Assembly: GCA_036504735.1 (NCBI GenBank)
Contig: DASXUQ010000009.1
Coordinates: 1-64,000 of the forward strand
Length of the DNA: 64,000 nt
Direction of reading: 5' to 3'
Origin: a bacterium
GTDB taxonomy: Bacteria > Electryoneota > RPQS01
Of the stretch, positions 9,343 through 20,245 are shown piece by piece; the first letter of the stretch is position 1; every line of letters begins with the position of its first letter. The position numbers and the translations under genes were made by a program. The notes below the pieces were generated by a model. The model was not told the DNA's origin. It made no database searches and worked only from the letters and a program-made list of their open reading frames with translations.

Positions 9343-9840
9343 TCACTCGCTCCTGCTTTGCGCCAGAAGAGCCGCCAGACGATCCATAGATTCAGCCATC
9401 CCTTGCTCCATGCCGGAGTTCAGCATGCCATCCCGATCCTGCACCGATTGAAAGAGCGCCCGGGTTTTCAGGATGGTCTTTTTGTCCTGCTCTTCAAAGG
9501 TAATCGTGTCGATGATCACGTGGCCGGGCATTGGTTCGAATTCAAAGGTGGAGACGATACGCTCGGGCGGCGTGACGGTCTGATAGGTGCCGTGAAACGC
9601 GTACTCTTTGCCGTCCGGTCCGCGCTGCACGAAGCGCCATGTGCCACCGGGCTTCACATCCATCTTCTCCACTTTGGTGGTGTAAATTTTCGGCCCCCAC
9701 CACTGTGGAATGAGGTCGGGATCCACATAAGCCTTGAACACGAGGTCACGGGGCGCATCGAAGCTTCGCGTCATAACAACCTCCCGATCCGACGGCAGGG
9801 TCACGGTCAAGGCATTGTCTGTTGCCACATTTTCTGCCAT
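9343..9840 (-). CDS. SRPBCC (AHSA1/Aha1-like) family protein
   Basis: ATG 9840 is preceded by AAGGAG. Motif RSFDAPRDLVFKAYVDPDLIPQWWGP. Tandem paralog of the next gene. Confidence 0.75.
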   Translation of the reverse strand: MAENVATDNALTVTLPSDREVVMTRSFDAPRDLVFKAYVDPDLIPQWWGPKIYTTKVEKMDVKPGGTWRFVQRGPDGKEYAFHGTYQTVTPPERIVSTFEFEPMPGHVIIDTITFEEQDKKTILKTRALFQSVQDRDGMLNSGMEQGMAESMDRLAALLAQSRSE

Positions 9841-9859
9841 GATGCTCTCCTTGCCAGGG

Positions 9860-10330
9860 TTATTTGAGACTTTGGACAAGTTTGTCGATGGACTCGTTCC
9901 AGCCGGTCTCGGCCATCTCGCTCATTTCGCCTTCGGGGAAACCTTCATGGCGCAGCGTCATGTGGGTCTTGCCGTTACGTTCTTCGAAGGACACCGTCAC
10001 CAGCAGTTCCAGCGGGAAATCCCCTTCCATGCCGTAGTAGGAAGCCTGGACTACATTGCCCTTCTCATCGGCAAAGCTGTCGGTCATCACCAGACGCTCC
10101 TGCGGGACGATTTCGCGGTAGACACCGGTGCTCCAGAAGTCCTGGCCGTCCGGCGAGCGCATGCAGAAAAGGTATTTGCCGCCCACATGGAGGTCGAGTT
10201 TAATGGCTGGCGCAGTGTAGCCTTTGGGCCCCCACCAGCGCTTGGCGCGCTCGGGCTCCGTCCAGGCTTTCCATACCAGATCGCGCGGCGCATTAATGTC
10301 GCGTTCGATGACTAATCCCTGCTGAATCAT
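9860..10330 (-). CDS. SRPBCC (AHSA1/Aha1-like) family protein
   Basis: ATG 10330 (MIQQGLVIERDINAPRDLVWKAWTEPERAKRWWGP). Confidence 0.75.
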   Translation of the reverse strand: MIQQGLVIERDINAPRDLVWKAWTEPERAKRWWGPKGYTAPAIKLDLHVGGKYLFCMRSPDGQDFWSTGVYREIVPQERLVMTDSFADEKGNVVQASYYGMEGDFPLELLVTVSFEERNGKTHMTLRHEGFPEGEMSEMAETGWNESIDKLVQSLK

Positions 10331-10567
10331 GAGATCTTTCCTTTGTCTACGGGTCCAGAATACCATTACTACAAACGGCCAAAACAGCGGCCTATGTTTT
10401 TGTACGCGCAACGGCTCGGAACGGTTCAAGCTTTAGAGCCGGAGTGACTCGACAGCAATGTGTCCGGCGGGTTATTCTATGTTCTGCTCAAACTGTACTT
10501 GTGTTCAGGATGCGGCACAGTATGGATTTTCGGGACTTCTAACTCTTCGAAAGTCAGGAGGCCTAAC

Positions 10568-10630: not shown

Positions 10631-12031
10631 TTACGTGGCGTTCTCTCCGCCGTCGCCGTGCAGCACGCCGTAGCCTTTCATGATCCGGTAGATGGTCCGG
10701 CGGTCCACACCGGCCCGGAGGGCGACACGGGTGATATTGCCGCGCTCCTCGTCGATCAGCCGCGTGAAGTATTCCCGCTGAAACTGGTCGAGCAGTTTGG
10801 CTTTGGCGTCTTCATAGGACTCGGTCACATCCACGCGGATGCTGCGGGAAGGAGCTTCCTGCAAGGACGCGGGCAGGTCTTCTTCGCGGAGAATCGGGTG
10901 GGTAGCAAGGGAGACGGCACGTTCCACCACGTTGCGCAGTTCGCGCACATTGCCCGGCCACGCATAGCGGGTCAGCCGGTCGAGCACTTGCGGCGAGAAG
11001 CCTTCGATTGTGCGTTTGAAATCGGCGGCAATCTCCGCCAGAAAATGCGCGGCCAGCACGGGAATATCCTCGCGCCGCTGCCGCAGAGGTGGAACATCCA
11101 CCATCACCACGGCAAGCCGGAAGAACAGGTCTTCACGCAACAGTTTTTGCTGCACCGCCGCTTTGGCGTCGCGGTTGGATGCAGCGATGATGCGTACATC
11201 GAGGTCGATCTCACGATTTCCGCCGACCCGTCGCACCTTGCGTTCCTGCAGGACGCGGAGCAATTTGGACTGCATGGCCATGTCCATTTCGGTGACTTCA
11301 TCGAGGAAGAAGGTGCCACCGTGGGCCTCTTCAAGCAGTCCCTTGCGCGTCGTAACGGCTCCGGTGAAGGCGCCCTTTTCGTGGCCGAAGAGTTCACTCT
11401 CGATGAGCTGCGCGGGGAGCGCGCTGCAGTTCACGGCCACGAACGGCCCGGCGCTGCGGCGGCTGGCGCCGTGAATCGCGCGCGCGATCACCTCTTTGCC
11501 CGTGCCGGATTCCCCCTGAATCAGCACGCTGGCATCGGTGTCCGCCACACGGGTGATGGTCGAGAGCACAAGCTGCATGGCGGGCGAGACGGCCACCACG
11601 GCGTCTTTCAATTGCTGGCGGTCCAGTTCGCGGCGCAGCCGCTGGTTCTCGAGAACCAAGGTGCGGTTCGTGAGCATCCGCTGCACCAGCAGCAGAAGCT
11701 GGTCTTTAGAGAAGGGTTTGACCAGATAATCGGCCGCACCGTGCTTCATCGCCTCGACGGCGGTTTCCACCGTGGCATAGGCCGTCATGATGACCACCGG
11801 CACATCGGTGTGCGACCAGTGGAGTTCACTTAACACCGCCATGCCGTCCTGCCCCGGCATCATCAGATCGGTCAGCACCAGATCGGGGTCGCAGGCGGCC
11901 ACCGTGGCGGACAGGTCGCGGCTGTCCTGCAGAGTTTGAATATCATAGCCCGCGCGCGACAGAATCAGCCGGCAGTTGTCGAGCATATCCGGCTCGTCGT
12001 CAATGACCAGAATCCGGGATTTTTCGTTCAT
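10631..12031 (-). CDS. sigma-54-dependent response regulator (NtrC family: REC + AAA+ sigma-54 activator + Fis-HTH)
   Basis: GESGTGKE Walker A, GAFTGA motif, C-terminal HTH. ATGA overlap with the kinase gene. Confidence 0.9.
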   Translation of the reverse strand: MNEKSRILVIDDEPDMLDNCRLILSRAGYDIQTLQDSRDLSATVAACDPDLVLTDLMMPGQDGMAVLSELHWSHTDVPVVIMTAYATVETAVEAMKHGAADYLVKPFSKDQLLLLVQRMLTNRTLVLENQRLRRELDRQQLKDAVVAVSPAMQLVLSTITRVADTDASVLIQGESGTGKEVIARAIHGASRRSAGPFVAVNCSALPAQLIESELFGHEKGAFTGAVTTRKGLLEEAHGGTFFLDEVTEMDMAMQSKLLRVLQERKVRRVGGNREIDLDVRIIAASNRDAKAAVQQKLLREDLFFRLAVVMVDVPPLRQRREDIPVLAAHFLAEIAADFKRTIEGFSPQVLDRLTRYAWPGNVRELRNVVERAVSLATHPILREEDLPASLQEAPSRSIRVDVTESYEDAKAKLLDQFQREYFTRLIDEERGNITRVALRAGVDRRTIYRIMKGYGVLHGDGGENAT

Positions 12032-13527
12032 GTGGCCTGGACCTGCTTCTCCAAAACCGGGAAACGGACGACAAAGGTGGTTCCCTTGCCGATTTCACTC
12101 GAGACCAGGATGTTGCCGTCGTGATTCTCCACGATGCGGTAGGTAATGGAAAGACCGAGCCCTGTTCCCACGCCGACATCCTTGGTGGTAAAGAACGGAT
12201 CGAAAATTTTCGAAAGATATTCGGGGGCGATTCCCTGTCCCGAATCGGTGATCTGCACGTGCAGGCTCTCACCCTTGGCCTGCGCGGTGAGCGTAATGCT
12301 TCCGCCGCGCGGCGTGGCATCCATCGCGTTCACCAGCAGGTTGATAAACACTTGCTCGATTTCCGTGCTGTTGCCCTTGAAGGGCGGCAGGTCCTCGGGA
12401 ATGTTGACGTCGAGCGCGATGCCGCGTTTTTCGATTTCCTTGCGTGTCAGGAGCAGCACGCCGCTGAGCAGCGTACTCAAATTCAGCGGCATCTTGCCCG
12501 TGCCGGATTGCCGCGCAAAGGAGAGCAGCCGTCCCACGATGTTCGAAATGCGGCCGGTGTTACGGTGCATCATGGCCAGATGCGCTTCCAGATCGTCGAC
12601 CGGCCTTCCGGCATGCACGTCATCAAGCAGCAACTCGAGCCGATTCTGGATGTTGCCGACAGGGTTGTTGATTTCATGCGCCACGCCCGCGGCCAGTTGC
12701 CCCGTAGCGGCCATCTTTTCCATCTGCACCATTCCGGCCTGCGTGCTGCGGAGTTCCTGAGTCCGCTGAGCGACGATAGTTTCCAGCTCGTCATTCTGCT
12801 TGCGAATGCGCTCGGCCAGCACCATCCGTTCCCGGTTCTCTTCGGTGATAATCCGGTCGGCGCGGGCGGCAATCAGCCACACGACCAGAAACAGCGCGAG
12901 GCCGGTGGCCGCCGTGCTGAGGATAATCACATTGCGGAGCTGCCGCACCTTGGCATACATGGCCGAGACGTCCATCAGCATCGCAAAGGCGAGGCGCTCG
13001 GTCGAGTCCGTTCCGGCGCGGACCTCCACCGGAACATAGGCCAGCAGATGGTCGCTCATATCGGCAACGCCGGCGGTATTCCCCGCCGGATACTCTTTGA
13101 TCAGCTTCGAGACCGCGTGTCCGGCCAGCGCGGAGAAGAGCATCGAATTGGACGGCTCTTCTTTGCCCTGCATCGTGGAGTCCGTCGAGAACAGAATGCG
13201 GTAATGCTTGTCATAGATGCTCACCTTTTCCACATTGAAGCCGTTCACGAAGGTGCGCACGACTCCGACCAGCTCCTCATTGGCAATGGGATTGTCGAAG
13301 GGATAGGTGGCAAAGGTCAATTCCCACGGCGCCATGTAGAACTGATCGAGGGAGCGGGCAAGGTGATTGGCTACCGCGGCGCTGGTCTGGCTGGAGACAT
13401 CGAGCATCCGGTTGCGTCCGAGGCCATAGGAGACAACCCCGCTGCCGCCGACAATGAGGATTTCCAGCAGAATGAAGTTCAGTCCAAAATAACGGGAGAA
13501 GCGACTCTTGGGAATCATGGCGATCAT
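12028..13527 (-). CDS. sensor histidine kinase (membrane sensor + HisKA + HATPase_c)
   Basis: H-box HEINNPVGNI. N/G1/G2 boxes (LVNAMDA, DSGQGI, GTGLGL). N-terminal TM segments. Confidence 0.85.
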   Translation of the reverse strand: MIAMIPKSRFSRYFGLNFILLEILIVGGSGVVSYGLGRNRMLDVSSQTSAAVANHLARSLDQFYMAPWELTFATYPFDNPIANEELVGVVRTFVNGFNVEKVSIYDKHYRILFSTDSTMQGKEEPSNSMLFSALAGHAVSKLIKEYPAGNTAGVADMSDHLLAYVPVEVRAGTDSTERLAFAMLMDVSAMYAKVRQLRNVIILSTAATGLALFLVVWLIAARADRIITEENRERMVLAERIRKQNDELETIVAQRTQELRSTQAGMVQMEKMAATGQLAAGVAHEINNPVGNIQNRLELLLDDVHAGRPVDDLEAHLAMMHRNTGRISNIVGRLLSFARQSGTGKMPLNLSTLLSGVLLLTRKEIEKRGIALDVNIPEDLPPFKGNSTEIEQVFINLLVNAMDATPRGGSITLTAQAKGESLHVQITDSGQGIAPEYLSKIFDPFFTTKDVGVGTGLGLSITYRIVENHDGNILVSSEIGKGTTFVVRFPVLEKQVQAT

Positions 13528-13815
13528 TAAATGTTATGCTTAAAGATAGCGGTCAGGCTCCAGAGATGCAACGGGAGGCCTGAATCCGCATGCCTTATCT
13601 ATCCTGTTCATACCTGATCAAAAGGAGTGTGACATTGTAGCCTCACTATGCTCTGGATAACAATAACAGAACCTTGCAGGATTGTGAGGCATTCCTGCCA
13701 CACTTTGCAGCTATGCCAGCCGTCGCCACTGTTATAGCAACTTCACGTAAAAAAGAGTCCATATAATCATAATTTTCAAGATTTTAAAATCGAAGAATGT
13801 AGAGTTCCAGCCTAT

Positions 13816-13831
13816 TGGCATATCCATTGCC
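13816..13831 (+). promoter_or_regulatory. candidate sigma-54 promoter (TGGCAT-N5-TTGCC) upstream of yceI-CHRD-cupredoxin genes
   Basis: ttggcatatccattgcc. Spacing between GG (-24) and GC (-12) is canonical. About 80 nt upstream of the yceI start. Divergent from the NtrC-type two-component genes. Confidence 0.55.
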
Positions 13832-13913
13832 ATACACAATAGCAGGCAGGGCAATGGATCAAACCTGCATACATAGTATACGCGCCACCACCTCGATAAA
13901 CCCTGTGACTCTT

Positions 13914-14519
13914 ATGAAAAAGCTATTCCTTTCGGTTTCACTACTCATCGCCACCGTCGCTATGGCTCAGTCGGCGACGTTCAAAGTTGTGGCGGGGGAT
14001 GTCCACACACTGGTTCAGTTCGAAAGCAAGGCCTCTCTCGAAACGGTGACAGGCAAGACCCGCACGGCGACCGGCTTTGCTGAACTGGATGGCGGTGGAG
14101 GCCGCGCGGAAGTTCACGTAGACCTGGCCTCACTACGCACCGGCATCAGCAAACGCGATCAGGACATGCGCGAGCAGTTTCTGCAAACCAAGCAATATCC
14201 GGAAGCGGTCTTCACCGTTACCACTCTTCAATTGCCCGCAACCGGGTTGCAGGAAAATGCCCGCACGCGGGTGTCGGTCAAGGGAAATCTGACGCTTCAC
14301 GGCACGACCCGCGAAGTCGAGCCGGAAACGTATCTCACATTAGGAACTGGCGGCCAGACACTGCGGATCGAGTCAGCCTTCCTCGTGAAGCTCCAGGATT
14401 ACACCATCGAGCGGCCCCAGTTCCTATTGCTTCGTCTGGCCGAAGAGCAGCATATCTCGGTCGACATCACAGCGGTCAGCGATAACCGCGGGGAGACGTC
14501 CCGGCAGGGCGGCAATTAG
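13914..14519 (+). CDS. YceI-like periplasmic protein
   Basis: Signal peptide MKKLFLSVSLLIATVAMAQS. YceI-like beta-barrel sequence. The track ORF starts earlier, at 13815. Confidence 0.7.
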   Translation: MKKLFLSVSLLIATVAMAQSATFKVVAGDVHTLVQFESKASLETVTGKTRTATGFAELDGGGGRAEVHVDLASLRTGISKRDQDMREQFLQTKQYPEAVFTVTTLQLPATGLQENARTRVSVKGNLTLHGTTREVEPETYLTLGTGGQTLRIESAFLVKLQDYTIERPQFLLLRLAEEQHISVDITAVSDNRGETSRQGGN

Positions 14520-14679
14520 CGCGCCCACGACGAGCAACATATCAACCCCTGCCTGCCCCAAGGGCAGGGGTTGTACTCCCGCGGTGGCAGTGCACACGAT
14601 TCACGCGATCTGATATCCATATAGAAGTGTTACGACGAAACAAAAGACAGATTGCCCGCACAGAGGCAAGGAGACATTC

Positions 14680-17235
14680 ATGAAGACTTATGCACAGCTT
14701 GTAGCGAGTGCTATGCTCGCACTTCTGATGTGTGCCGGAGCTGCACACGCGAATCAGTTTATCGCCCGTTTGAGCGGAAGCCAGGAGCCGGAACATGTAG
14801 TGACAACGGCGCAGGGCACGGGCACTTTTACGCTGACTGAAGAAGGTCTGGCCTATCATATTACGGTGGACGGACTGAGCGGGCCGATTGGCGCGGCGCA
14901 CTTTCACGACGGAATGATGGGCACCAACGGCGGAATCGTCCGCACGATTGAGTTCAACGGCAACACCGCCAGCGGCATCTGGTCACCGACCGATGCCGAA
15001 CCGCTGACGGACGACATCAAGACCGACCTGTTGCTCGGGCATGTATATGTCAATATTCACACCAGCGAGCACGCCGCAGGCGAGATTCGCGGACAGGTAA
15101 TCGTCAGTTCGGGGACAGCGCTGAGAGCGCGGATTACGCCATTTCAGGTGGCCCAGCATGGCGGACACCGCTCCACGGCAACCGGAACCGGAAGCTTCAC
15201 GCTGGTGGAAGAAGGGCTGCTTTACAAGATTACGATTAATGGGATTCCGGGCTCGGTGGTGGGAGAATTCGGGCTGGGCAAGCCCGGAGTACAGGGACCG
15301 CCCTTGAAGACCATGACCTTTACCGGCAATACCGCCGAAGGAATTTGGCATTATGATGACACGCCGCCCTTGACGGACTCGCTGGAAGCCGAGCTGCTGG
15401 CCGGACATGTCTACTTCGAAATCGGCACCGGCGGGTACTATGGCAATGAAATGAAGGGACAGATTTATCCGTCGGAAGGCTGGGGATTCGAATCGTCCGC
15501 CGATGCCAATCAGGAAACCCATTCCGTGAATTCGACGGGAAAAGCCTCCGGCGCATTCCTGCTGACCGAGCGGGGACTATCGTACAACATTACGGCCTCG
15601 GGATTGACTTCGGCGATTACGGCGGCGGATCTGCATGTGGGCAGCGCGGGGCAGAGTGGCTCGGTAATCAAAACTATTATCTTCAACGGCAACTCGGCCT
15701 CCGGAGCCTGGCTGAAAGATGATGCGGCGCAGCCGTTGACGGCGGACGTGCAGGCGGCGTTGCGCCGGGGGGATGTGTATTTCGAAATCCACACCATGAG
15801 CTACGCGGACGGCGAGATCCGCGGCCAGATGATGCCAGCGACGGGCAGCACCTTTGTTCAGGCGGAATTGTCTTCGGCCCAGGAATTCGATCCGGTGCCC
15901 AGCGGCGCGACAGGCAGCGGCGTGTTCAAGGTTACGCCGCAAGGTCTGGAGTATCATATTACGGTCAGCGGACTCTCCGGCACGGTGTCGGCGGAGTTTG
16001 ACCGCGGCGATATGGGACGCAACGGATCGCGGGTCGGGGAAATCAGCTTTGACGGCAACAGTGCCGATGGCGTCTGGTCGCCCGATGATCATCAGCCGTT
16101 TACTGACAGCCGTCTGATGGATCTGCTGACCGGAAGTCTGTTCATCAACATCAGCACATCGCAATATCCGGGCGGCGAGATTCGGTCGCAGCTCTTTGTC
16201 GTCGGCGGTTCGGGACTCGGCACCGACTTGTCCACGCAGCAAGAGGGGCATCCGGTGACGTCGCCGGGCGCGGGCGTAGGCTCGTTCACTTTGACTCCCG
16301 ATGGATTGGTGTACCAGATTACAGTCAATGATCTCAGCGGTCCGATTGGCGAGGCGCATTTCCACTATGCAGCGACTGGCGAAGACGGCCCGATTGTGCG
16401 CACCATCCCCTTCGACGGCAATAATGCCAGCGGTGTATGGCGCAGCAGCGACGCCGAGCCGCTGACAGATGAATTTGTCGAAGACCTGCTTTCCGGAGAA
16501 ATCTACGTCAACATTCACACGTCATCCTACGCCGCAGGTGAGATTCGCGGGCAGGTCTTCCTGAACAGCGGCATCGGTCTGGGCGCGGGAATGGATCCGG
16601 CGCAGGAGACGCATCCCGTGACCTCCGGCGGCACCGGAACCGTTGCCACGATTCTTACGGAAGAGGCCTTAGTCTATACCGGGACGGTGAACGGTCTGAC
16701 CGGACCCATTGGGGAGACACACTTCCACAATGCCGCGCCCGGAACGGACGGCCCGATCATCAAGACGCTGGAATTCAACGGCACGGCGATTTCCGGTATC
16801 TGGAAAGCCTCAGACTCGGAACCACTGTCGGTGGCCAATATCAATGCTCTGAATGCGGGCAACGTGTATATCAATGTCCATACGTCGCAATTCGCCGCGG
16901 GTGAACTGCGCGGCCAGATGGGCAGTACCCAGGGAGCGTCGGCAGCCGGACCTGTACCATCGAGCAGGCCAAGCAGTTTTGCCCTCGCGCAGAACTATCC
17001 CAATCCTTTCAACCCCAGCACGGTGATTCACTTCGACGCGGCTCAATCGGGGCGTGTGCGATTGACGGTTTTCAATCTGCTCGGGCAGAGAGTGGCAACA
17101 CTGCTGGACAATCCGGTTCAGGCCGGGGCGCATGAAGTCAACTTCAACGCGGCGGCCTTACCGTCCGGCGTCTACCTATACTCTCTCGAAGCTGGAAATA
17201 CGAAACTGGTCCGCAGGATGATCCTCCTGAAGTGA
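14680..17235 (+). CDS. secreted protein with six tandem CHRD domains and T9SS C-terminal sorting domain
   Basis: Signal peptide. Six repeats ending in the CHRD signature (AHFH..G.nGgiV... / GhVYVNIHTs...GEIRGQ). C-terminus LAQNYPNPFNPSTVIHF...LYSLEAGNTKLVRRMILLK. Confidence 0.8.
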   Translation: MKTYAQLVASAMLALLMCAGAAHANQFIARLSGSQEPEHVVTTAQGTGTFTLTEEGLAYHITVDGLSGPIGAAHFHDGMMGTNGGIVRTIEFNGNTASGIWSPTDAEPLTDDIKTDLLLGHVYVNIHTSEHAAGEIRGQVIVSSGTALRARITPFQVAQHGGHRSTATGTGSFTLVEEGLLYKITINGIPGSVVGEFGLGKPGVQGPPLKTMTFTGNTAEGIWHYDDTPPLTDSLEAELLAGHVYFEIGTGGYYGNEMKGQIYPSEGWGFESSADANQETHSVNSTGKASGAFLLTERGLSYNITASGLTSAITAADLHVGSAGQSGSVIKTIIFNGNSASGAWLKDDAAQPLTADVQAALRRGDVYFEIHTMSYADGEIRGQMMPATGSTFVQAELSSAQEFDPVPSGATGSGVFKVTPQGLEYHITVSGLSGTVSAEFDRGDMGRNGSRVGEISFDGNSADGVWSPDDHQPFTDSRLMDLLTGSLFINISTSQYPGGEIRSQLFVVGGSGLGTDLSTQQEGHPVTSPGAGVGSFTLTPDGLVYQITVNDLSGPIGEAHFHYAATGEDGPIVRTIPFDGNNASGVWRSSDAEPLTDEFVEDLLSGEIYVNIHTSSYAAGEIRGQVFLNSGIGLGAGMDPAQETHPVTSGGTGTVATILTEEALVYTGTVNGLTGPIGETHFHNAAPGTDGPIIKTLEFNGTAISGIWKASDSEPLSVANINALNAGNVYINVHTSQFAAGELRGQMGSTQGASAAGPVPSSRPSSFALAQNYPNPFNPSTVIHFDAAQSGRVRLTVFNLLGQRVATLLDNPVQAGAHEVNFNAAALPSGVYLYSLEAGNTKLVRRMILLK

Positions 17236-17311
17236 TCTTCTAAATGACAGCCTTCAAGGCCCGCACCTCTGAACCTATTCATGAACTAACATATTCGTAG
17301 AGGAGAAGGAA

Positions 17312-17710
17312 ATGACCGGCAGAAAAAAGGTCATTCTCGCACTGGCCATGAGTGTGGCCGCACTTCTGATCATCATCGCCGGGTGCAGTAGCAAGAACAG
17401 CACCGGCTACAATAATCCGGTAGGGAATCCGGGCGGCAGTCCGGGCGCTAATGAGGTCTGGATGCAGAACACGCAGTTCAATCCGTCAAGCAAAACGGTC
17501 AGCGTGGGTACCGCGCTTACTTGGACCAATAAGGACGGCATTCCGCATACGGTGACCAGCGGTGCGCCGGGCAGTCCCAACGGCACCTTCGACAGCGGCA
17601 ACATGGCGGGCGGAGCGACGTTTTCGCACACCTTCAGTCAGGCGGGGACATTCCCATATTACTGCCGTATCCACGGCACCATGATGACCGGAAGCATTAC
17701 CGTACAATAG
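17312..17710 (+). CDS. cupredoxin (plastocyanin/pseudoazurin-like blue copper) lipoprotein
   Basis: Lipobox LIIIAGCSS. Cu ligands H..C..H..M in PHTVTSG ... YYCRIHGTMM. SD GAGGAGAAGG. Confidence 0.75.
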   Translation: MTGRKKVILALAMSVAALLIIIAGCSSKNSTGYNNPVGNPGGSPGANEVWMQNTQFNPSSKTVSVGTALTWTNKDGIPHTVTSGAPGSPNGTFDSGNMAGGATFSHTFSQAGTFPYYCRIHGTMMTGSITVQ

Positions 17711-17761
17711 CTGCGGCTCGAGATCCCTGTCGAGCCACCGTACCTATAGACTCCCCTCACG

Positions 17762-17794
17762 AAAATAGCGTCTCTGCAAGGCGCTATTTTCTTT
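17762..17794 (+). terminator. rho-independent terminator after cupredoxin gene
   Basis: aaatagcgc..gcgctattt stem followed by TTTTCTTTG. A second hairpin lies at 17715..17736. Confidence 0.65.
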
Positions 17795-18023
17795 GTGGAT
17801 AGCCTTGTCCAAAATCACTTTCACGGCGACCACCATCTCGAAATAAAGTATTTACTTATGCTTACTTGATCAAATACGAAGCGTCATGCCTCCCTCGTCT
17901 GGCTTGGAAAGAATGGAACGGCGCTATAAGTCATCTGAAAAAATTCTGAATGACTGTTTATTGTTCAAAAAACTTGCGGATTTTTGCTAAAAGTTGTTGT
18001 AAAAAGCGAAATAATGGTTATAT

Positions 18024-18035
18024 TGTCATCTGACA
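18024..18035. promoter_or_regulatory. palindrome TGTCATCTGACA upstream of TetR gene (candidate operator)
   Basis: Perfect 5+2+5 inverted repeat about 90-120 nt upstream of the TetR start. A nearby half-site-like agtgacagtgg. Confidence 0.4.
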
Positions 18036-18123
18036 GTATCGAGTGACAGTGGCGTTCGATTGCCAGTGCGCGGGCGAAAGGCTTTCGAGTCTTTCCTGAC
18101 ATCTTGCGCTGAAGATCGCATCG

Positions 18124-18837
18124 TTGAAGCCGGGAATCTGCTTGCTGATGCCGACAATAACGGAAACTACGGGAAGGCCGGTACCGGTGAGCAAGGCGAA
18201 CAGAGTGGAAATACCGGCAGATACGCAGACACCTCGCGCCCGAATTCTGGCCGCCGCTACGCACCTGTTTGCCGAACACGGATTCAAGGGGACCAACACC
18301 CGCGCCATTGCCGAGAGTGCCGGGGTGAAGCAGGTCATGCTCCACTACTATTACGGCAGCAAGGAGCGGTTGTATGAAGCGGTCCTCAAGCATGAAGGCC
18401 TGGCGATGCTGACCGTGATCTTCGGCACGGATCCCGACCGGAAATCTTCGCTGGACATGTTGATCAGTTCGCCGATCCGCTTGATGACAGTGCTGCGGGA
18501 CAACCCGCAGTGGTCCTCGCTGTTGCGGCGGGAAATTGCCGATGGCGCCGAGCATCTGCGCGCGGCACTGCGCGACATCGGAGAGCACGGCCCGCTCGGC
18601 GCAAATCTGCATTTTCAGGATGCCTACATGGATGCGGTGCACGAAGGCAAAGCGGTCAATCTGCCCGTGGAAGCGGTCGGGGAGTGCTTGCTGGCTATCG
18701 GGTACAGCGCCATTTATCTGGCGCCGCTGATTTTGATGATCAGTGAACGGGACATTCAGGATGATGCCGTGTGGGAGGAATGGACGCTGACCTTGAGCAC
18801 GATTCTCCACAGGGGACTGTTGACCGACAAGCCGTGA
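18124..18837 (+). CDS. TetR/AcrR family transcriptional regulator
   Basis: HTH RARILAAATHLFAEHGFKGTNTRAIAESAGV. Start 18124 vs 18148 is uncertain. Confidence 0.8.
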   Translation: MKPGICLLMPTITETTGRPVPVSKANRVEIPADTQTPRARILAAATHLFAEHGFKGTNTRAIAESAGVKQVMLHYYYGSKERLYEAVLKHEGLAMLTVIFGTDPDRKSSLDMLISSPIRLMTVLRDNPQWSSLLRREIADGAEHLRAALRDIGEHGPLGANLHFQDAYMDAVHEGKAVNLPVEAVGECLLAIGYSAIYLAPLILMISERDIQDDAVWEEWTLTLSTILHRGLLTDKP

Positions 18838-19053: not shown

Positions 19054-19198
19054 TCGTTACCGAACGTCTTGTTCTCACGCATATTTAAAAGACGGGCCGT
19101 GTTTCGCAGAGCGGAAGCGGCTCCTATGACGGCCTGCCGGGCGGTGCTCGCACCGGACCGGTGCATTTATCGTTTAGTTGGGTATTGGGTGTTTGGCT

Positions 19199-20245
19199 AT
19201 GCATCGCGAAGATTCCCGTCTGGGCGCTGTAGACACGACGACCGCTGTCAAGCCGGTCCAGTCCACAGCCGCCAGCGTATGGCAGGTGGTAAATACCATC
19301 CCCCCGTTTTGTGGTCTGCTGTTTCTCATGTACCGTTTGCTGCCGGTCTCCTATCTGTTGGTTCTGGCGCTGGCGGTTCTTGCGGCGGGCTTTATGGTCC
19401 GCACGTTCATCATCCAGCATGATTGCGGCCACGGCTCCTTCTTCAAGTCCCGCAAGGCTAACGACCGGATGGGCTGGTTCTGTAGCCTGTTCACGCTGAT
19501 CCCCTATCACTACTGGAAGCGGGAACACGCACTGCACCACGCCACCAGCGGCAACCTGGACCGGCGTGGCTACGGTGATATGGACATCTTCACGGTAGGC
19601 GAATACATGCAGCTCTCCCGCTGGAAGCGGTTCCGCTATCGCGCGTATCGCCATCCGCTGGTGTTTCTGCTGGTCGGTCCGCCGGTCGCGGTCCTGCTGC
19701 AGCATCGCATGGCTTCCGACAAGAAGCAAACCACCAAGCGGCAGCGGCGCAATGTCTACACGACAAACCTGACGATGGTCTCCACGGTGCTCATCCTCGG
19801 ATGGCTGATGGGATTCGTCAACCTGCTGCTGATTGCCGTTCCGGTGCTGTATCTTGCGCTGGGCGCAGGGATCTGGCTGTTTTACATCCAGCACCAGTTC
19901 GAACACACCTACTGGAAACGCGGCGCGGAATGGAACAGCATCCATGCGGCCATGCAGGGAAGTTCCTTTTACAAGCTGCCGAAAGTCCTCCAGTGGTTTA
20001 CGGGCAATATCGGCTTCCATCACATCCATCATCTCGATGAGCACATGCCCAACTACCGGCTGCCGCAGATTTACGAGCAGCACCCGGAGTTGCAGGATGT
20101 CTTCACGGTGACCATCAGGTCCAGCCTGAAGACGGCGTTCCTGAGTGTGTGGGATGAGCGGCAGGAGCGGCTGATCAGCTTCCGCGAGTTGAAGCGGCGC
20201 TACAGCGGCGAGCCGGCGGAGGATGCGGTTTCCAGTGCGGGGTAA
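19199..20245 (+). CDS. membrane fatty acid desaturase family protein
   Basis: His boxes HDCGH, HALHH, HHIHH. Multiple TM segments. ATG at 19199 (the track ORF begins with TTG at 19178). Confidence 0.85.
   Translation: MHREDSRLGAVDTTTAVKPVQSTAASVWQVVNTIPPFCGLLFLMYRLLPVSYLLVLALAVLAAGFMVRTFIIQHDCGHGSFFKSRKANDRMGWFCSLFTLIPYHYWKREHALHHATSGNLDRRGYGDMDIFTVGEYMQLSRWKRFRYRAYRHPLVFLLVGPPVAVLLQHRMASDKKQTTKRQRRNVYTTNLTMVSTVLILGWLMGFVNLLLIAVPVLYLALGAGIWLFYIQHQFEHTYWKRGAEWNSIHAAMQGSSFYKLPKVLQWFTGNIGFHHIHHLDEHMPNYRLPQIYEQHPELQDVFTVTIRSSLKTAFLSVWDERQERLISFRELKRRYSGEPAEDAVSSAG

What the first reader, a model, noticed from the sequence alone, without database searches (positions are those of the whole stretch)
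10631..17794. NtrC-type two-component system divergent from a sigma-54 promoter driving yceI, a 6xCHRD T9SS protein and a cupredoxin
TGGCAT-N5-TTGCC at 13816..13831 has canonical -24/-12 spacing about 80 nt upstream of yceI. The only sigma-54 activator in the window is encoded divergently. The putative regulon comprises a YceI-like protein, an 851-aa protein with six CHRD domains (function unknown) exported by T9SS, and a blue-copper cupredoxin. Together they suggest an extracellular or periplasmic electron-transfer or metal-related function under enhancer-dependent control.
Basis: partly seen in the sequence, partly recalled or inferred. Interest (0 to 1): 0.6.

Follow-up and report, generated by a model that had tools for sequence, protein, structure and literature searches.

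The report
Sigma-54 two-component switch for envelope copper/lipocalin genes
An uncultured bacterium carries a sensor kinase and sigma-54 activator next to a conserved enhancer-dependent promoter that very probably switches on exported copper and lipid-carrier proteins; the regulation is ordinary, but the gene set is undescribed and gives a testable idea about an unknown domain.

Summary
TGGCAT-N5-TTGCC (13816-13831) is not significant inside the window alone (4 near-matches, 5.1 expected). However, nine orthologous loci from KSB1/Calditrichota-like metagenome bacteria each carry exactly one TGGCAC-N5-TTGC in the same place and orientation (0.0055 expected).

Upstream lie two 20-bp dyads, consensus GTGTGGCAT-N2-ATGCCACAC, at 13627-13646 and 13684-13703. 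With a matrix built only from other loci they are the two best hits in the 64 kb. In most of the ten loci they sit about 132 and 189 bp upstream of the -24 element.

The activator has an intact receiver Asp, Walker motifs and GAFTGA. The kinase has a periplasmic PDC-like sensor with no Pfam family.

The conserved core of the regulon is a YceI lipocalin plus an amicyanin-like type-1 copper cupredoxin. The T9SS cargo varies: a BNR propeller in most loci, 6xCHRD here. CHRD repeat 1 models as a Cu,Zn-SOD-like barrel, and 873 bacterial CHRD domains keep or lose a His triad together.

The most likely function, by inference, is an extracytoplasmic copper-dependent redox or antioxidant module, analogous to BcnA-LcoA. 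This is a new member of a known kind, of moderate interest.

The parts
10631..12031 (-). NtrC-family response regulator / sigma-54 enhancer-binding protein (466 aa). Its start overlaps the HK stop by 4 nt.
   Evidence: Pfam Response_reg 102 bits, Sigma54_activat 235.7 bits, AAA_lid_14 97.9 bits, HTH_8 19.8 bits (below the cut-off of 22). D55 in DLMMPG, Walker A at 173, GAFTGA at 220, Walker B DEV at 244. Best NCBIfam models are AtoC, NtrC and ZraR, all below their equivalog cut-offs. It is the only EBP in the window.
12028..13527 (-). Sensor histidine kinase (499 aa): TM1, a ~150-aa periplasmic PDC-like sensor, TM2, a coiled coil, then HisKA and HATPase.
   Evidence: Pfam HisKA and HATPase_c. 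AF2 model mean pLDDT 79.6, with the sensor (aa ~38-187) at about 90: a long helix followed by an alpha/beta sheet. The sensor has no Pfam family even at E<=1. The kinase core is closest to the ZraS cytoplasmic domain, 35-36% identity. 29 full-length orthologues at 55-63% identity, some named KSB1 or Calditrichaeota.
13543..13571 (-). Candidate sigma-70-type promoter of the HK-RR operon: TTGCAT (13571-13566), 17-nt spacer, TATCTT (13548-13543).
   Evidence: The same hexamers and 17-nt spacer occur in L081 and L087, and as TTGTAT-N17-TATCTT in L157. They are absent in four other divergent loci. No sigma-54 motif lies on this strand. This is an inference, not a test.
13627..13646 (.). Upstream activator site A (distal dyad), GTGTGACATTGTAGCCTCAC, 189 bp upstream of the T of TGGCAT.
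   Evidence: 16.2 bits with a palindromic matrix built only from other loci; second-best hit in the 64 kb. Matches at -187 to -191 occur in W, L081, L087, L089, L157 and L159 (L087 -24 position).
13684..13703 (.). Upstream activator site B (proximal dyad), GTGAGGCATTCCTGCCACAC, 132 bp upstream of the -24 element.
   Evidence: 22.3 bits, the best hit in the window and above the maximum of 20 shuffles (18.7). The degenerate pattern with up to 3 mismatches finds only sites A and B, against 0.12 expected. Matches at -131 to -134 occur in W, L081, L087, L084, L089 and L157 (L087 -24 position).
13741..13800 (.). AT-rich tract between the enhancer and the promoter, with an IHF-like AATCATAATTTTC at 13765-13777. 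Possible bend site.
   Evidence: The 13500-13999 block has GC 0.456, against about 0.58 in the flanks. AT-rich tracts occupy the same place in all loci. L087 has a perfect WATCAANNNNTTR (AATCAATTAATTA) about 41 nt upstream of -24. The IHF consensus is from my own knowledge. Inference only.
13816..13831 (+). Sigma-54 (-24/-12) promoter TGGCATatccaTTGCC; predicted TSS about 13842; 5'UTR about 72 nt.
   Evidence: Conserved as TGGCAC-N5-TTGC(C/T) in L081, L087, L084, L089, L085, L156, L157, L158 and L159.
13822..13859 (.). Perfect 10-bp inverted repeat ATCCATTGCC / GGCAATGGAT with an 18-nt spacer, overlapping the -12 element and positions +9 to +18. Role unknown.
   Evidence: L081 has CTTGCC-N18-GGCAAG at the same place. 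It is not general in the other loci.
13914..14519 (+). yceI: periplasmic YceI-family lipocalin (201 aa, Sec signal peptide).
   Evidence: Pfam YceI 78.5 bits. Solved relatives include 1WUB, 1Y0G and 5IXG. Orthologues of 45-79% identity lie in all related loci.
14543..14573 (+). 12-bp G+C-rich stem-loop 24 nt after the yceI stop, with no U tract. Candidate attenuating terminator or mRNA stabiliser.
   Evidence: ViennaRNA fold. Unique in the window. The same stem CAACCCCTGCC/GGCAGGGGTTG with different loops follows yceI in L081 and L087.
14680..17235 (+). 851-aa secreted protein: signal peptide, six CHRD (SOD-like) repeats, T9SS type-A C-terminal sorting domain.
17312..17710 (+). Cupredoxin lipoprotein (132 aa; lipobox IAGC; Gly/Pro/Asn linker; amicyanin-like type-1 copper site H...C-x2-H-x2-M).
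   Evidence: Pfam Copper-bind 42.9 bits. Amicyanin, plastocyanin and halocyanin are the best NCBIfam models, all below cut-off. The ligands are conserved in all eight orthologous cupredoxin domains.
17761..17798 (+). Intrinsic terminator ending the operon (13-bp stem followed by UUUG).
   Evidence: ViennaRNA fold. Conserved after the cupredoxin gene in L081.

Best explanation
This is an enhancer-dependent (sigma-54) envelope regulon under a dedicated two-component system.

Proposed mechanism:
1. The membrane kinase (12028-13527) detects an extracytoplasmic signal through a periplasmic PDC-like domain and phosphorylates D55 of the NtrC-family activator (10631-12031).
2. The activator binds two 20-bp dyads (13627-13646 and 13684-13703; consensus GTGTGGCAT-N2-ATGCCACAC).
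3. It contacts sigma-54 holoenzyme, held as a closed complex at TGGCAT-N5-TTGCC (13816-13831), by looping over an AT-rich tract. ATP hydrolysis (GAFTGA loop) then opens the promoter.
4. Transcription starts near 13842 and runs through yceI, past a conserved hairpin that probably lets only part of the transcripts continue, into the 6xCHRD T9SS cargo gene and the cupredoxin lipoprotein gene. It stops at the terminator at 17761-17798.
5. The kinase-regulator operon itself appears to use a sigma-70-type promoter.

Shown by sequence and comparison: the domain make-up, conservation of the promoter and dyads, and the conserved pairing of YceI with a type-1 copper cupredoxin.

Inferred (about 0.35-0.4 on its own): the products form an extracytoplasmic, copper-dependent one-electron redox or antioxidant module.
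- The YceI lipocalin would carry an isoprenoid quinone.
- The cupredoxin would be its one-electron partner, taking the place of cytochrome b561 in the BcnA-LcoA system.
- The surface-exposed SOD-like CHRD repeats would bind a metal at their His triad and deal with superoxide or related radicals.
For: Promoter:
- Exact -24/-12 spacing.
- One match per orthologous intergenic region in 10 of 10 loci, always on the operon strand, against 0.0055 expected.
- In ~65 non-orthologous YceI loci only four scattered matches, none just upstream of the yceI homologue; only 2 other matches in 155 fetched loci.

Enhancer:
- A matrix built from other loci only ranks the two window dyads first and second in 64 kb (22.3 and 16.2 bits).
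- The degenerate pattern gives 2 hits against 0.12 expected.
- Spacing to -24 is conserved at about -132 and about -189 in most of the ten loci (seven have at least one site at these positions); the dyads stay with the promoter where gene order differs.

Activator: REC, AAA+ and lid domains; D55, Walker A and B, GAFTGA; the only EBP in the window.

Kinase: orthologues of 55-63% identity always sit next to the same activator and the same target genes.

Operon:
- Terminator after the cupredoxin gene, conserved in L081.
- No sigma-54 motif (at most one mismatch) anywhere in the operon interior.
- In L089, L158 and L159, stem-loops start at +2 of the predicted TSS and carry compensatory changes.

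Function:
- The cupredoxin His-Cys-His-Met ligands are conserved in all orthologues.
- YceI-family BcnA works with a linked redox protein against lipid peroxyl radicals, and YceI proteins bind ubiquinone-8 or octaprenyl compounds (PMC9113575).
- CHRD repeat 1 model has pLDDT 95.6, with HxH on strand 4 and the third His on strand 7.
- In 873 bacterial CHRD domains the His triad is complete in 754 and absent in 65 (1.2 expected if independent), with few partial cases.
- A Polynucleobacter CHRD protein lies next to, and co-varies with, a catalase-related peroxidase (PMC7522526).
Against: - No experimental data exist for any member.
- rpoN is not in the window (no RpoN box), and the rest of the genome could not be searched.
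- The window's -24 hexamer is TGGCAT, whereas all orthologues have TGGCAC.
- Assigning the dyads to this activator rests on co-conservation only.
- The HTH_8 match is below Pfam's cut-off (19.8 against 22 bits).
- The 12-bp hairpin after yceI could terminate most transcripts, so co-transcription of CHRD and the cupredoxin gene is not certain.
- The sensor domain has no conserved Cys/Met/His cluster (only H55 is invariant), so the signal is unknown.
- CHRD shows no sequence-level similarity to SOD1 (hhalign probability 0.1) and lacks the zinc and electrostatic loops. Chordin CHRD binds heparan sulfate and no metal (PMC13382577).
- CHRD is present in only two of the ten loci, so it is not essential to the module.
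Confidence: 0.75

Rival explanations
1. Copper homeostasis or resistance module. The kinase would sense periplasmic copper. The cupredoxin (as for CopI-type proteins) and the His-triad CHRD repeats would sequester or oxidise copper outside the cytoplasm, and YceI would be accessory.
For: The type-1 copper ligands are conserved in all cupredoxin orthologues. A conserved, co-varying His triad sits in a fold shared with Cu,Zn-SOD and the copper chaperone CCS. The kinase core is closest to the metal-responsive ZraS, and the gene arrangement resembles zraP-zraSR.
Against: The sensor domain lacks the Met/His/Cys-rich motifs usual in copper or silver sensors; only one His is invariant. There is no CopA, CusCBA or multicopper oxidase in the operon or in any orthologous locus. 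A redox-competent His-Cys-His-Met site is typical of electron carriers. The invariant partner is a lipocalin, which copper handling does not explain.
Confidence: 0.15
2. Cell-surface substrate oxidation or extracellular electron transfer. A T9SS-exported propeller (or the CHRD array here) would oxidise or reduce an external substrate and pass electrons through the amicyanin-like cupredoxin and a YceI-bound quinone to or from the respiratory chain, in the manner of methylamine dehydrogenase-amicyanin.
For: In six of the seven orthologous loci where the cupredoxin gene was seen (L084, L089, L156-L159), the cupredoxin is fused to a BNR/Ycf48-like beta-propeller with a T9SS sorting domain. Amicyanin is the best NCBIfam model, and the site has the C-x2-H-x2-M spacing. 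YceI proteins bind quinones (PMC9113575).
Against: No dehydrogenase cofactor domain, cytochrome or outer-membrane conduit lies in any locus. BNR/Ycf48 propellers have no known redox activity. The propeller is replaced by CHRD, or by a small unrelated protein, in the window's closest relatives. That argues the cargo domain is not a specific catalytic partner.
Confidence: 0.12
3. Surface glycan-binding or adhesion proteins. CHRD (as in chordin) and BNR propellers would bind polysaccharide, the cupredoxin would be a structural or degenerate domain, and the system would remodel the cell surface in response to an envelope cue.
For: Human chordin CHRD domains bind heparan sulfate and carry no metal (PMC13382577). 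BNR/Sortilin propellers occur in glycan-active proteins (my own knowledge). Sigma-54 regulons often concern the cell exterior (PMC3162934 abstract).
Against: The copper ligands of the cupredoxin are strictly conserved. The bacterial CHRD His triad and Arg113 are conserved and co-vary, unlike in chordin. This reading gives YceI no role.
Confidence: 0.06
4. The -24/-12 match is fortuitous, and yceI is transcribed from a sigma-70-type promoter (for example the lone TATAAT at 13762-13767). The neighbouring two-component system would control something else.
For: Within the window the motif is at chance frequency. A perfect TATAAT lies 47 nt upstream.
Against: 10 of 10 orthologous regions carry the motif, against 0.0055 expected. 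Dyads lie at conserved distances from it. TATAAT has no -35 partner, and the scan finds no + strand sigma-70 site in the intergenic region. The TATAAT is not conserved beyond L087.
Confidence: 0.02

Closest known systems
ZraS-ZraR / zraP (E. coli envelope-stress, zinc-responsive sigma-54 system)
   Same: A membrane kinase and an NtrC-family sigma-54 activator are transcribed divergently from a sigma-54 promoter that drives a periplasmic protein, with activator sites in the shared intergenic region (the ZraSR/zraP arrangement is from my own knowledge). The kinase core is the closest solved relative: ZraS cytoplasmic domain 9JFJ, 35-36% identity. ZraS and ZraR are among the best NCBIfam models.
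   Different: Scores are far below the equivalog cut-offs (ZraR 388 against 760; ZraS 182 against 479). The sensor domain matches no family. The targets are YceI, cupredoxin and CHRD rather than the Spy/CpxP-like ZraP. The kinase-regulator operon here has a sigma-70-like promoter and no sigma-54 motif.
DctB-DctD / dctA (rhizobial C4-dicarboxylate system)
   Same: A PDC-type periplasmic sensor kinase and a sigma-54 activator are divergent from their target. Two tandem upstream activator sites lie roughly 100-200 bp upstream of the -24/-12 promoter (my own knowledge of DctD). Here the sites are at -132 and -189.
   Different: The sensor and the target (a transporter there, secreted redox proteins here) are unrelated, and the dyad sequence differs. 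Not tested beyond domain architecture.
BcnA-LcoA lipid peroxyl radical detoxification system (Burkholderia cenocepacia; PMC9113575)
   Same: A YceI-family lipocalin is genetically locked to a small redox protein and induced by stress. YceI proteins carry ubiquinone-8 or octaprenyl ligands. The window's YceI matches the same solved family: 5IXG, 1Y0G, 1WUB.
   Different: The partner here is a type-1 copper cupredoxin (periplasmic lipoprotein or T9SS cargo), not a membrane cytochrome b561. Control is by a sigma-54 two-component system. There are extra T9SS cargo domains. No functional data exist.
Cu,Zn superoxide dismutase family, including Cu-only SODs (SOD5, DR_0644) and SOD-like YojM
   Different: There is no detectable sequence similarity (hhalign probability 0.1). 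No fourth (bridging) His is conserved. The domains are arranged as tandem arrays of 2-13 repeats. Activity is untested, and eukaryotic chordin CHRD has no metal.
Amicyanin / halocyanin-type cupredoxins
   Same: Single-domain cupredoxin with His, Cys-x2-His-x2-Met ligands. These are the best NCBIfam models.
   Different: Below the family cut-offs (38.7 against 110 bits). No methylamine dehydrogenase is present. The protein is either lipid-anchored or fused to a BNR propeller and T9SS domain.

Membership tests
Sigma-54-dependent promoter | GG and GC dinucleotides 10 nt apart within TGGCAC-N5-TTGCW, upstream of a gene and in its orientation | tested here: met
   TGGCATatccaTTGCC at 13816-13831, 82 nt before the yceI ATG.
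Sigma-54-dependent promoter | Conservation of the element in orthologous loci beyond chance | tested here: met
   10 of 10 intergenic regions have one match each on the operon strand, against 0.0055 expected.
Sigma-54-dependent promoter | Cognate enhancer-binding protein with a GAFTGA loop, and upstream activator sites | tested here: met
   GAFTGA at residue 220. Two conserved dyads at -132 and -189. Binding itself is inferred.
Sigma-54-dependent promoter | rpoN present in the genome; TSS 12 nt downstream of -12; RpoN-dependent expression | not testable with these tools
   No RpoN box in the 64-kb window.
NtrC-family response regulator (bEBP) | Receiver with phospho-acceptor Asp, AAA+ sigma-54 interaction domain, and C-terminal Fis-type HTH | tested here: met
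   Pfam Response_reg 102 bits and Sigma54_activat 235.7 bits. D55 and the Walker motifs. HTH_8 only 19.8 bits (cut-off 22), but the full-length alignment to AtoC covers 1-456 of 461.
AtoC/AtoS, ZraR/ZraS, NtrC, GlrR (named equivalogs) | Score at or above the NCBIfam equivalog cut-off | tested here: not met
   AtoC 483.7 against 714; NtrC 430 against 559; ZraR 388 against 760; AtoS 204 against 646; ZraS 182 against 479.
YceI lipocalin family | Pfam PF04264 above the gathering score, and a signal peptide | tested here: met
   78.5 bits against 23.7. The N-terminal MKKLFLSVSLLIATVAMA is read directly from the sequence.
BcnA-LcoA system | YceI gene linked to a cytochrome b561 gene | tested here: not met
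   No b561 lies in the operon or in any of nine orthologous loci; the linked redox protein is a cupredoxin.
CHRD domain | Pfam PF07452 above the gathering score | tested here: met
   386.5 bits, six stretches. The library holds 11,711 representative proteins with E<=0.001.
Cu,Zn superoxide dismutase | SOD Greek-key fold | tested here: met
Cu,Zn superoxide dismutase | Sequence-family membership and the full metal ligand set (four Cu His plus the Zn site) | tested here: not met
   hhalign probability 0.1 against human SOD1. Only three conserved His, and no zinc loop in a 119-residue repeat.
Cu,Zn superoxide dismutase | Metal binding and dismutase activity | not testable with these tools
   Needs purified protein.
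T9SS cargo (type A CTD) | C-terminal Por_Secre_tail / TIGR04183 domain and an N-terminal signal peptide | tested here: met
   PF18962 37.7 bits against 27; TIGR04183 40.4 against 23.
T9SS cargo (type A CTD) | T9SS machinery encoded in the genome | not tested
   Not looked for in the window. The KSB1/Calditrichota affiliation of the orthologues is compatible with it.
Type-1 (blue) copper cupredoxin | Cupredoxin fold with His, Cys, His, Met ligands | tested here: met
   PF00127 42.9 bits against 21.2. PHTV...YYCRIHGTM aligns with the conserved H/C/H/M in eight orthologues.

The most novel reading that the evidence does not exclude
The YceI-cupredoxin pair would be a copper-based counterpart of the BcnA-LcoA (lipocalin-cytochrome b561) system. 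It would quench lipid-derived or oxygen radicals in the envelope and, through T9SS, on the cell surface. Bacterial CHRD domains (more than 11,000 representative proteins, function unknown) would be metal-binding, Cu-only-SOD-like modules whose His triad is the active site. A dedicated sigma-54 two-component system with a new PDC sensor would then be an extracytoplasmic oxidative-stress sensor in KSB1/Calditrichota-type bacteria.
Probability: 0.2. Interest if true: 0.65.

Novelty: new member of a known kind. Interest (0 to 1): 0.4.

Why it matters
The regulatory logic is textbook: kinase, NtrC-type activator, upstream sites, -24/-12 promoter. Its value lies in three things.

1. It gives a complete, comparatively validated cis-regulatory map for an uncultured FCB-group lineage: promoter, two enhancer dyads with fixed spacing, terminators and a candidate sigma-70 promoter. 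Almost no promoters are known in this lineage.
2. It ties YceI lipocalins, whose role is still debated, to a second kind of one-electron partner, a cupredoxin. This supports the idea that they are redox shuttles.
3. It places a CHRD array in a copper and redox context. Together with the all-or-none His triad and the SOD-like model, this turns the "function unknown" CHRD domain into a directly testable metal-enzyme hypothesis.

Tried and rejected
- the genome-contig scan with the full-length kinase returned only kinase-core paralogues (matches to residues ~230-491).
- an exact look-up of the window's YceI found nothing, although the identical protein P0001 is in the collection.
- a homology search with the sensor domain alone (aa 1-241, typed as letters) returned no hit. 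This is probably a limit of the word index. The full-length query then worked.
- hhalign of the six CHRD repeats against human SOD1 gave no signal. The SOD link therefore rests on fold only.
- Foldseek with the whole kinase model was dominated by kinase cores and said nothing about the sensor.
- Rfam found no RNA family in 13400-14750 (best hit sX11, 19 bits against 70).
- A sigma-54 promoter for the kinase-regulator operon was looked for and rejected (no match on that strand).
- The other three near-matches to the sigma-54 consensus in the window: two (47367, 52495) were rejected as intragenic; the one at 668 was not looked at.
- Literature searches for YceI with cupredoxin, YceI with sigma-54, cupredoxin with T9SS, and bacterial CHRD with SOD found nothing relevant. 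One search was badly framed and wasted.
- ORF 17965-18810(-), 281 aa, has no Pfam match, an odd Arg/Gln/His-rich composition, and overlaps the TetR gene on the other strand. I treat it as non-coding.

Full report
**1. Observation**

- Sequence. The sequence at 13816-13831 is TGGCATatccaTTGCC on the + strand. The GG and GC dinucleotides have the canonical sigma-54 spacing.
- Start codon. The true yceI start is the ATG at 13914. The mechanical ORF begins at a TTG at 13815, but the 201-aa product from 13914 is identical to database protein P0001. The -12 element therefore ends 82 nt upstream of the gene, and the predicted TSS is about 13842.
- Gene calls.
  - an NtrC-type regulator at 10631-12031(-), with Response_reg, Sigma54_activat and AAA_lid_14;
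  - a HisKA/HATPase_c kinase at 12028-13527(-), whose stop overlaps the regulator's start by 4 nt;
  - YceI at 13914-14519;
  - an 851-aa protein with six CHRD stretches and a T9SS Por_Secre_tail at 14680-17235;
  - a 132-aa cupredoxin at 17312-17710.
- Only one EBP. A tblastn of the regulator against the window finds only itself, so it is the only EBP in the 64 kb.

**2. Is the motif more than chance?**

- Within the window: no. TGGCAY-N5-TTGCW with at most one mismatch occurs 4 times, against 5.1 expected. Two of the other three hits (47367, 52495) lie inside long ORFs; the one at 668 was not examined.
- The decisive evidence is comparative. I collected nine distinct orthologous loci: L081 (=L082/L086), L087, L084, L089, L085 and L156-L159.
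  - The YceI route was a homology search followed by contig look-ups and a metagenome scan.
  - The kinase route was a full-length homology search followed by contig look-ups.
  - The kinase orthologues are 55-89% identical. Some are named candidate division KSB1 or Calditrichaeota; the window's own record says only "bacterium".
- Result. Every one of the ten intergenic regions (4332 nt in all, otherwise unalignable) carries exactly one TGGCA[CT]-N5-TTGC. It is always on the strand of the target operon and never on the other. Mononucleotide shuffles give 0.0055 matches per set.
- Controls. In about 65 non-orthologous YceI loci fetched in the same scan, only four scattered matches appear, none placed just upstream of the yceI homologue. 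Across all 155 loci then held, only two unrelated matches to the TTGCC form exist.

**3. The enhancer**

Reading the orthologous regions side by side shows a 20-bp dyad, present twice per region, with consensus GTGTGGCAT-N2-ATGCCACAC. L085 has a perfect palindrome, GTGAGGCATGCATGCCTCAC.
- A palindromic weight matrix built only from sites in other loci ranks 13684-13703 (22.3 bits) and 13627-13646 (16.2 bits) first and second in the whole window. The best hit exceeds the maximum of 20 shuffled windows, which was 18.7 bits.
- A degenerate pattern with up to three mismatches finds just these two sites, against 0.12 expected.
- Spacing is conserved:
  - the proximal site lies 131-134 bp upstream of the T of TGGCA in W, L081, L087, L084, L089 and L157;
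  - the distal site lies 187-191 bp upstream in W, L081, L087, L089, L157 and L159.
- In L085 and L156 the regulator gene lies upstream on the same strand. The dyads still sit between it and the promoter, so they belong to the promoter rather than to the kinase gene.
- Between enhancer and promoter all loci have an AT-rich tract. L087 has a perfect IHF consensus there, and the window a two-mismatch version at 13765-13777. This is a lead, not a test.

**4. The proteins of the switch**

- Regulator. It has the phospho-acceptor Asp (D55), Walker A (173), GAFTGA (220) and Walker B (244).
  - It aligns end to end with AtoC, NtrC, ZraR and GlrR models, but always far below their equivalog cut-offs.
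  - It is therefore an unnamed member of the NtrC family.
- Kinase. The AF2 model (29-sequence alignment, mean pLDDT 79.6) shows two transmembrane helices around a confidently modelled domain (pLDDT about 90) with a long helix and an alpha/beta sheet. This is a PDC-like fold.
  - The domain matches no Pfam family even at E<=1.
  - It has no conserved Cys/Met/His cluster, so the signal is unknown.
  - The cytoplasmic core is most similar to ZraS (9JFJ, 35-36% identity).
- Kinase-regulator promoter. The operon has no sigma-54 motif. TTGCAT-N17-TATCTT is conserved in W (13571-13543, minus strand), L081 and L087, and nearly so in L157. This is a candidate sigma-70-type promoter.

**5. The transcription unit**

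- Downstream of yceI lies a 12-bp G+C-rich stem-loop (14543-14573) without a U tract.
  - It is unique in the window.
  - Its stem sequence recurs after yceI in L081 and L087 with different loops, whatever the next gene is.
  - I read it as a partial terminator or a stabiliser that sets YceI above the downstream products.
- No sigma-54 motif (at most one mismatch) lies anywhere downstream within the operon. The operon ends at a 13-bp stem plus UUUG (17761-17798), also conserved in L081.
- In L089, L158 and L159, long stem-loops begin at +2 of the predicted TSS and carry compensatory changes. This indirectly supports the predicted start.
- Rfam finds nothing in the region.

**6. What the regulon is**

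- Across the ten loci, the invariant partners of the two-component system are a YceI lipocalin and a cupredoxin domain.
- In six of the seven orthologous loci where a cupredoxin gene was seen, the cupredoxin is the N-terminal domain of a ~496-aa protein with a BNR/Ycf48-like propeller and a T9SS sorting domain, followed by yceI.
- The window and its closest relatives have reshuffled this:
  - the window has yceI, then 6xCHRD with a T9SS domain, then a separate lipoprotein cupredoxin;
  - L081 has a 202-aa T9SS protein, then yceI, then the cupredoxin;
  - L087 has yceI, then CHRD.
- The type-1 copper ligands (His, Cys-x2-His-x2-Met; amicyanin-like) are conserved in all eight cupredoxin domains aligned.
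- Flanking genes differ from locus to locus, so the cassette is self-contained.

**7. CHRD**

- The only solved relatives by sequence are the recent human chordin structures. Their authors describe four SOD-like Greek-key domains without metal that bind heparan sulfate (PMC13382577).
- A profile of the six repeats finds 11,711 representative proteins, mostly tandem arrays of 4, 6, 8 or 12 repeats.
- In 873 domains from the best 150 proteins, His occupies profile positions 50, 52 and 103 in 88-90% of cases.
  - The three are kept or lost together: 754 domains have all, 65 have none (1.2 expected under independence), and about 40 are partial.
  - Arg113 is present in 852 of 873.
- In the model, HxH lies on strand 4, His103 on strand 7 and Arg113 on strand 8. 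From my own knowledge, these are the strands that carry Cu ligands H46, H48 and H120, with R143 nearby, in SOD1.
- In the window protein, repeats 1, 5 and 6 have the full triad, repeat 3 has two of three, and repeats 2 and 4 have none.
- Sequence-level similarity to SOD1 is nil, so this is a fold and site analogy, not family membership.

**8. Mechanism proposed for the products (inferred)**

- YceI-family BcnA and its linked cytochrome b561, LcoA, protect the Burkholderia envelope against lipid peroxyl radicals.
  - YceI proteins carry ubiquinone-8 or octaprenyl compounds.
  - The authors propose that the cytochrome re-reduces the lipocalin-bound quinone (PMC9113575).
- Here the lipocalin is locked instead to a one-electron copper carrier. 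In this genome it also comes with a surface array of SOD-like domains.
- A Polynucleobacter CHRD protein lies next to, and co-varies with, a catalase-related peroxidase (PMC7522526).
- The most economical reading is an extracytoplasmic, copper-dependent redox or antioxidant module switched on by an envelope signal. I give this about 0.35-0.4.
- Rivals are copper homeostasis, surface substrate oxidation, and glycan binding. The regulatory model itself I put at about 0.9.

**9. Comparison and novelty**

- The architecture works like zraP-zraSR and dctA-dctBD, but the system fails the equivalog tests for every named family.
- It resembles BcnA-LcoA but lacks the defining cytochrome b561.
- I found no paper linking YceI with cupredoxins or sigma-54, cupredoxins with T9SS in this sense, or assigning a function to bacterial CHRD.
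- Verdict: a real, conserved, previously undescribed member of a well-known kind of regulatory system. Its cargo makes the CHRD and YceI questions experimentally approachable. Interest is moderate (0.4).

**10. Limits**

- No rpoN could be sought outside the window.
- No binding or expression data exist.
- The ten loci are related, although their intergenic DNA is otherwise diverged.
- The assignment of the dyads to this regulator, the IHF site, the role of the hairpin and all functional statements about the products are inferences.

Noticed in passing
window 14543-14573; L081 about 2027-2057; L087 about 1345-1377: A 12-bp stem CAACCCCTGCC/GGCAGGGGTTG follows yceI in three loci. The loops differ and so does the downstream gene. 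It has no U tract. It could be a conserved 3' element: an attenuator, a stabiliser or a processing site.
   Followed up: partly
window 13822-13831 / 13850-13859: A perfect 10-bp inverted repeat overlaps the -12 element and positions +9 to +18 of the predicted transcript. L081 has CTTGCC-N18-GGCAAG at the same place, but the other loci do not. It could be an operator for a second regulator, or chance.
   Followed up: partly
L089 6265-6320; L158 and L159 equivalent positions (5'UTRs of the cupredoxin-propeller genes): Long stem-loops begin at +2 of the predicted sigma-54 TSS (GGGGACCGCAAGG... / GGGGACCGUAAGC... / GGGGGCCGUAAGG...). They carry compensatory base changes between loci.
   Followed up: partly
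873 CHRD domains from P0046-P0195: Bacterial CHRD domains keep or lose a His-x-His...His triad together (754 all, 65 none, about 40 partial). Arg113 is nearly invariant. Tandem arrays come mostly in even numbers (4, 6, 8, 12).
   Followed up: yes
window 18124-18837 (+) and 19178-20245 (+): A TetR-family regulator and a membrane fatty-acid desaturase lie directly downstream of the operon. A link to membrane lipid unsaturation or peroxidation is conceivable but was not examined.
   Followed up: no
window 9343-9879 (-) and 9860-10429 (-); L156 14183-14650 (-): Two tandem AHSA1/SRPBCC (START-like lipid-binding fold) genes lie just downstream of the regulator gene on the same strand. An SRPBCC gene also lies near the cassette in L156.
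   Followed up: no
L156 8488-9886 and 10232-11983: In this locus the regulator is called as two ORFs (299 and 177 aa), which suggests a frameshift or an assembly error. The target protein has two tandem cupredoxin domains before the propeller. The target operon lies on the same strand behind a terminator.
   Followed up: no
L085 964-2921: A variant regulon: the sigma-54 promoter drives yceI, a MarR-family regulator gene and a second yceI. No cupredoxin lies within the 3-kb contig.
   Followed up: no
window 17965-18810 (-): This 281-aa ORF has no family match and an Arg/Gln/His-rich composition, and it overlaps the TetR gene on the opposite strand. It is probably not a gene.
   Followed up: partly
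window 12964-13416 (-) (kinase residues 38-188): The periplasmic PDC-like sensor domain is conserved in at least 29 proteins (invariant H55, D61, Y64, W68, S114-T115-D116, N127). It has no Pfam model, so it is an uncurated sensor family.
   Followed up: partly
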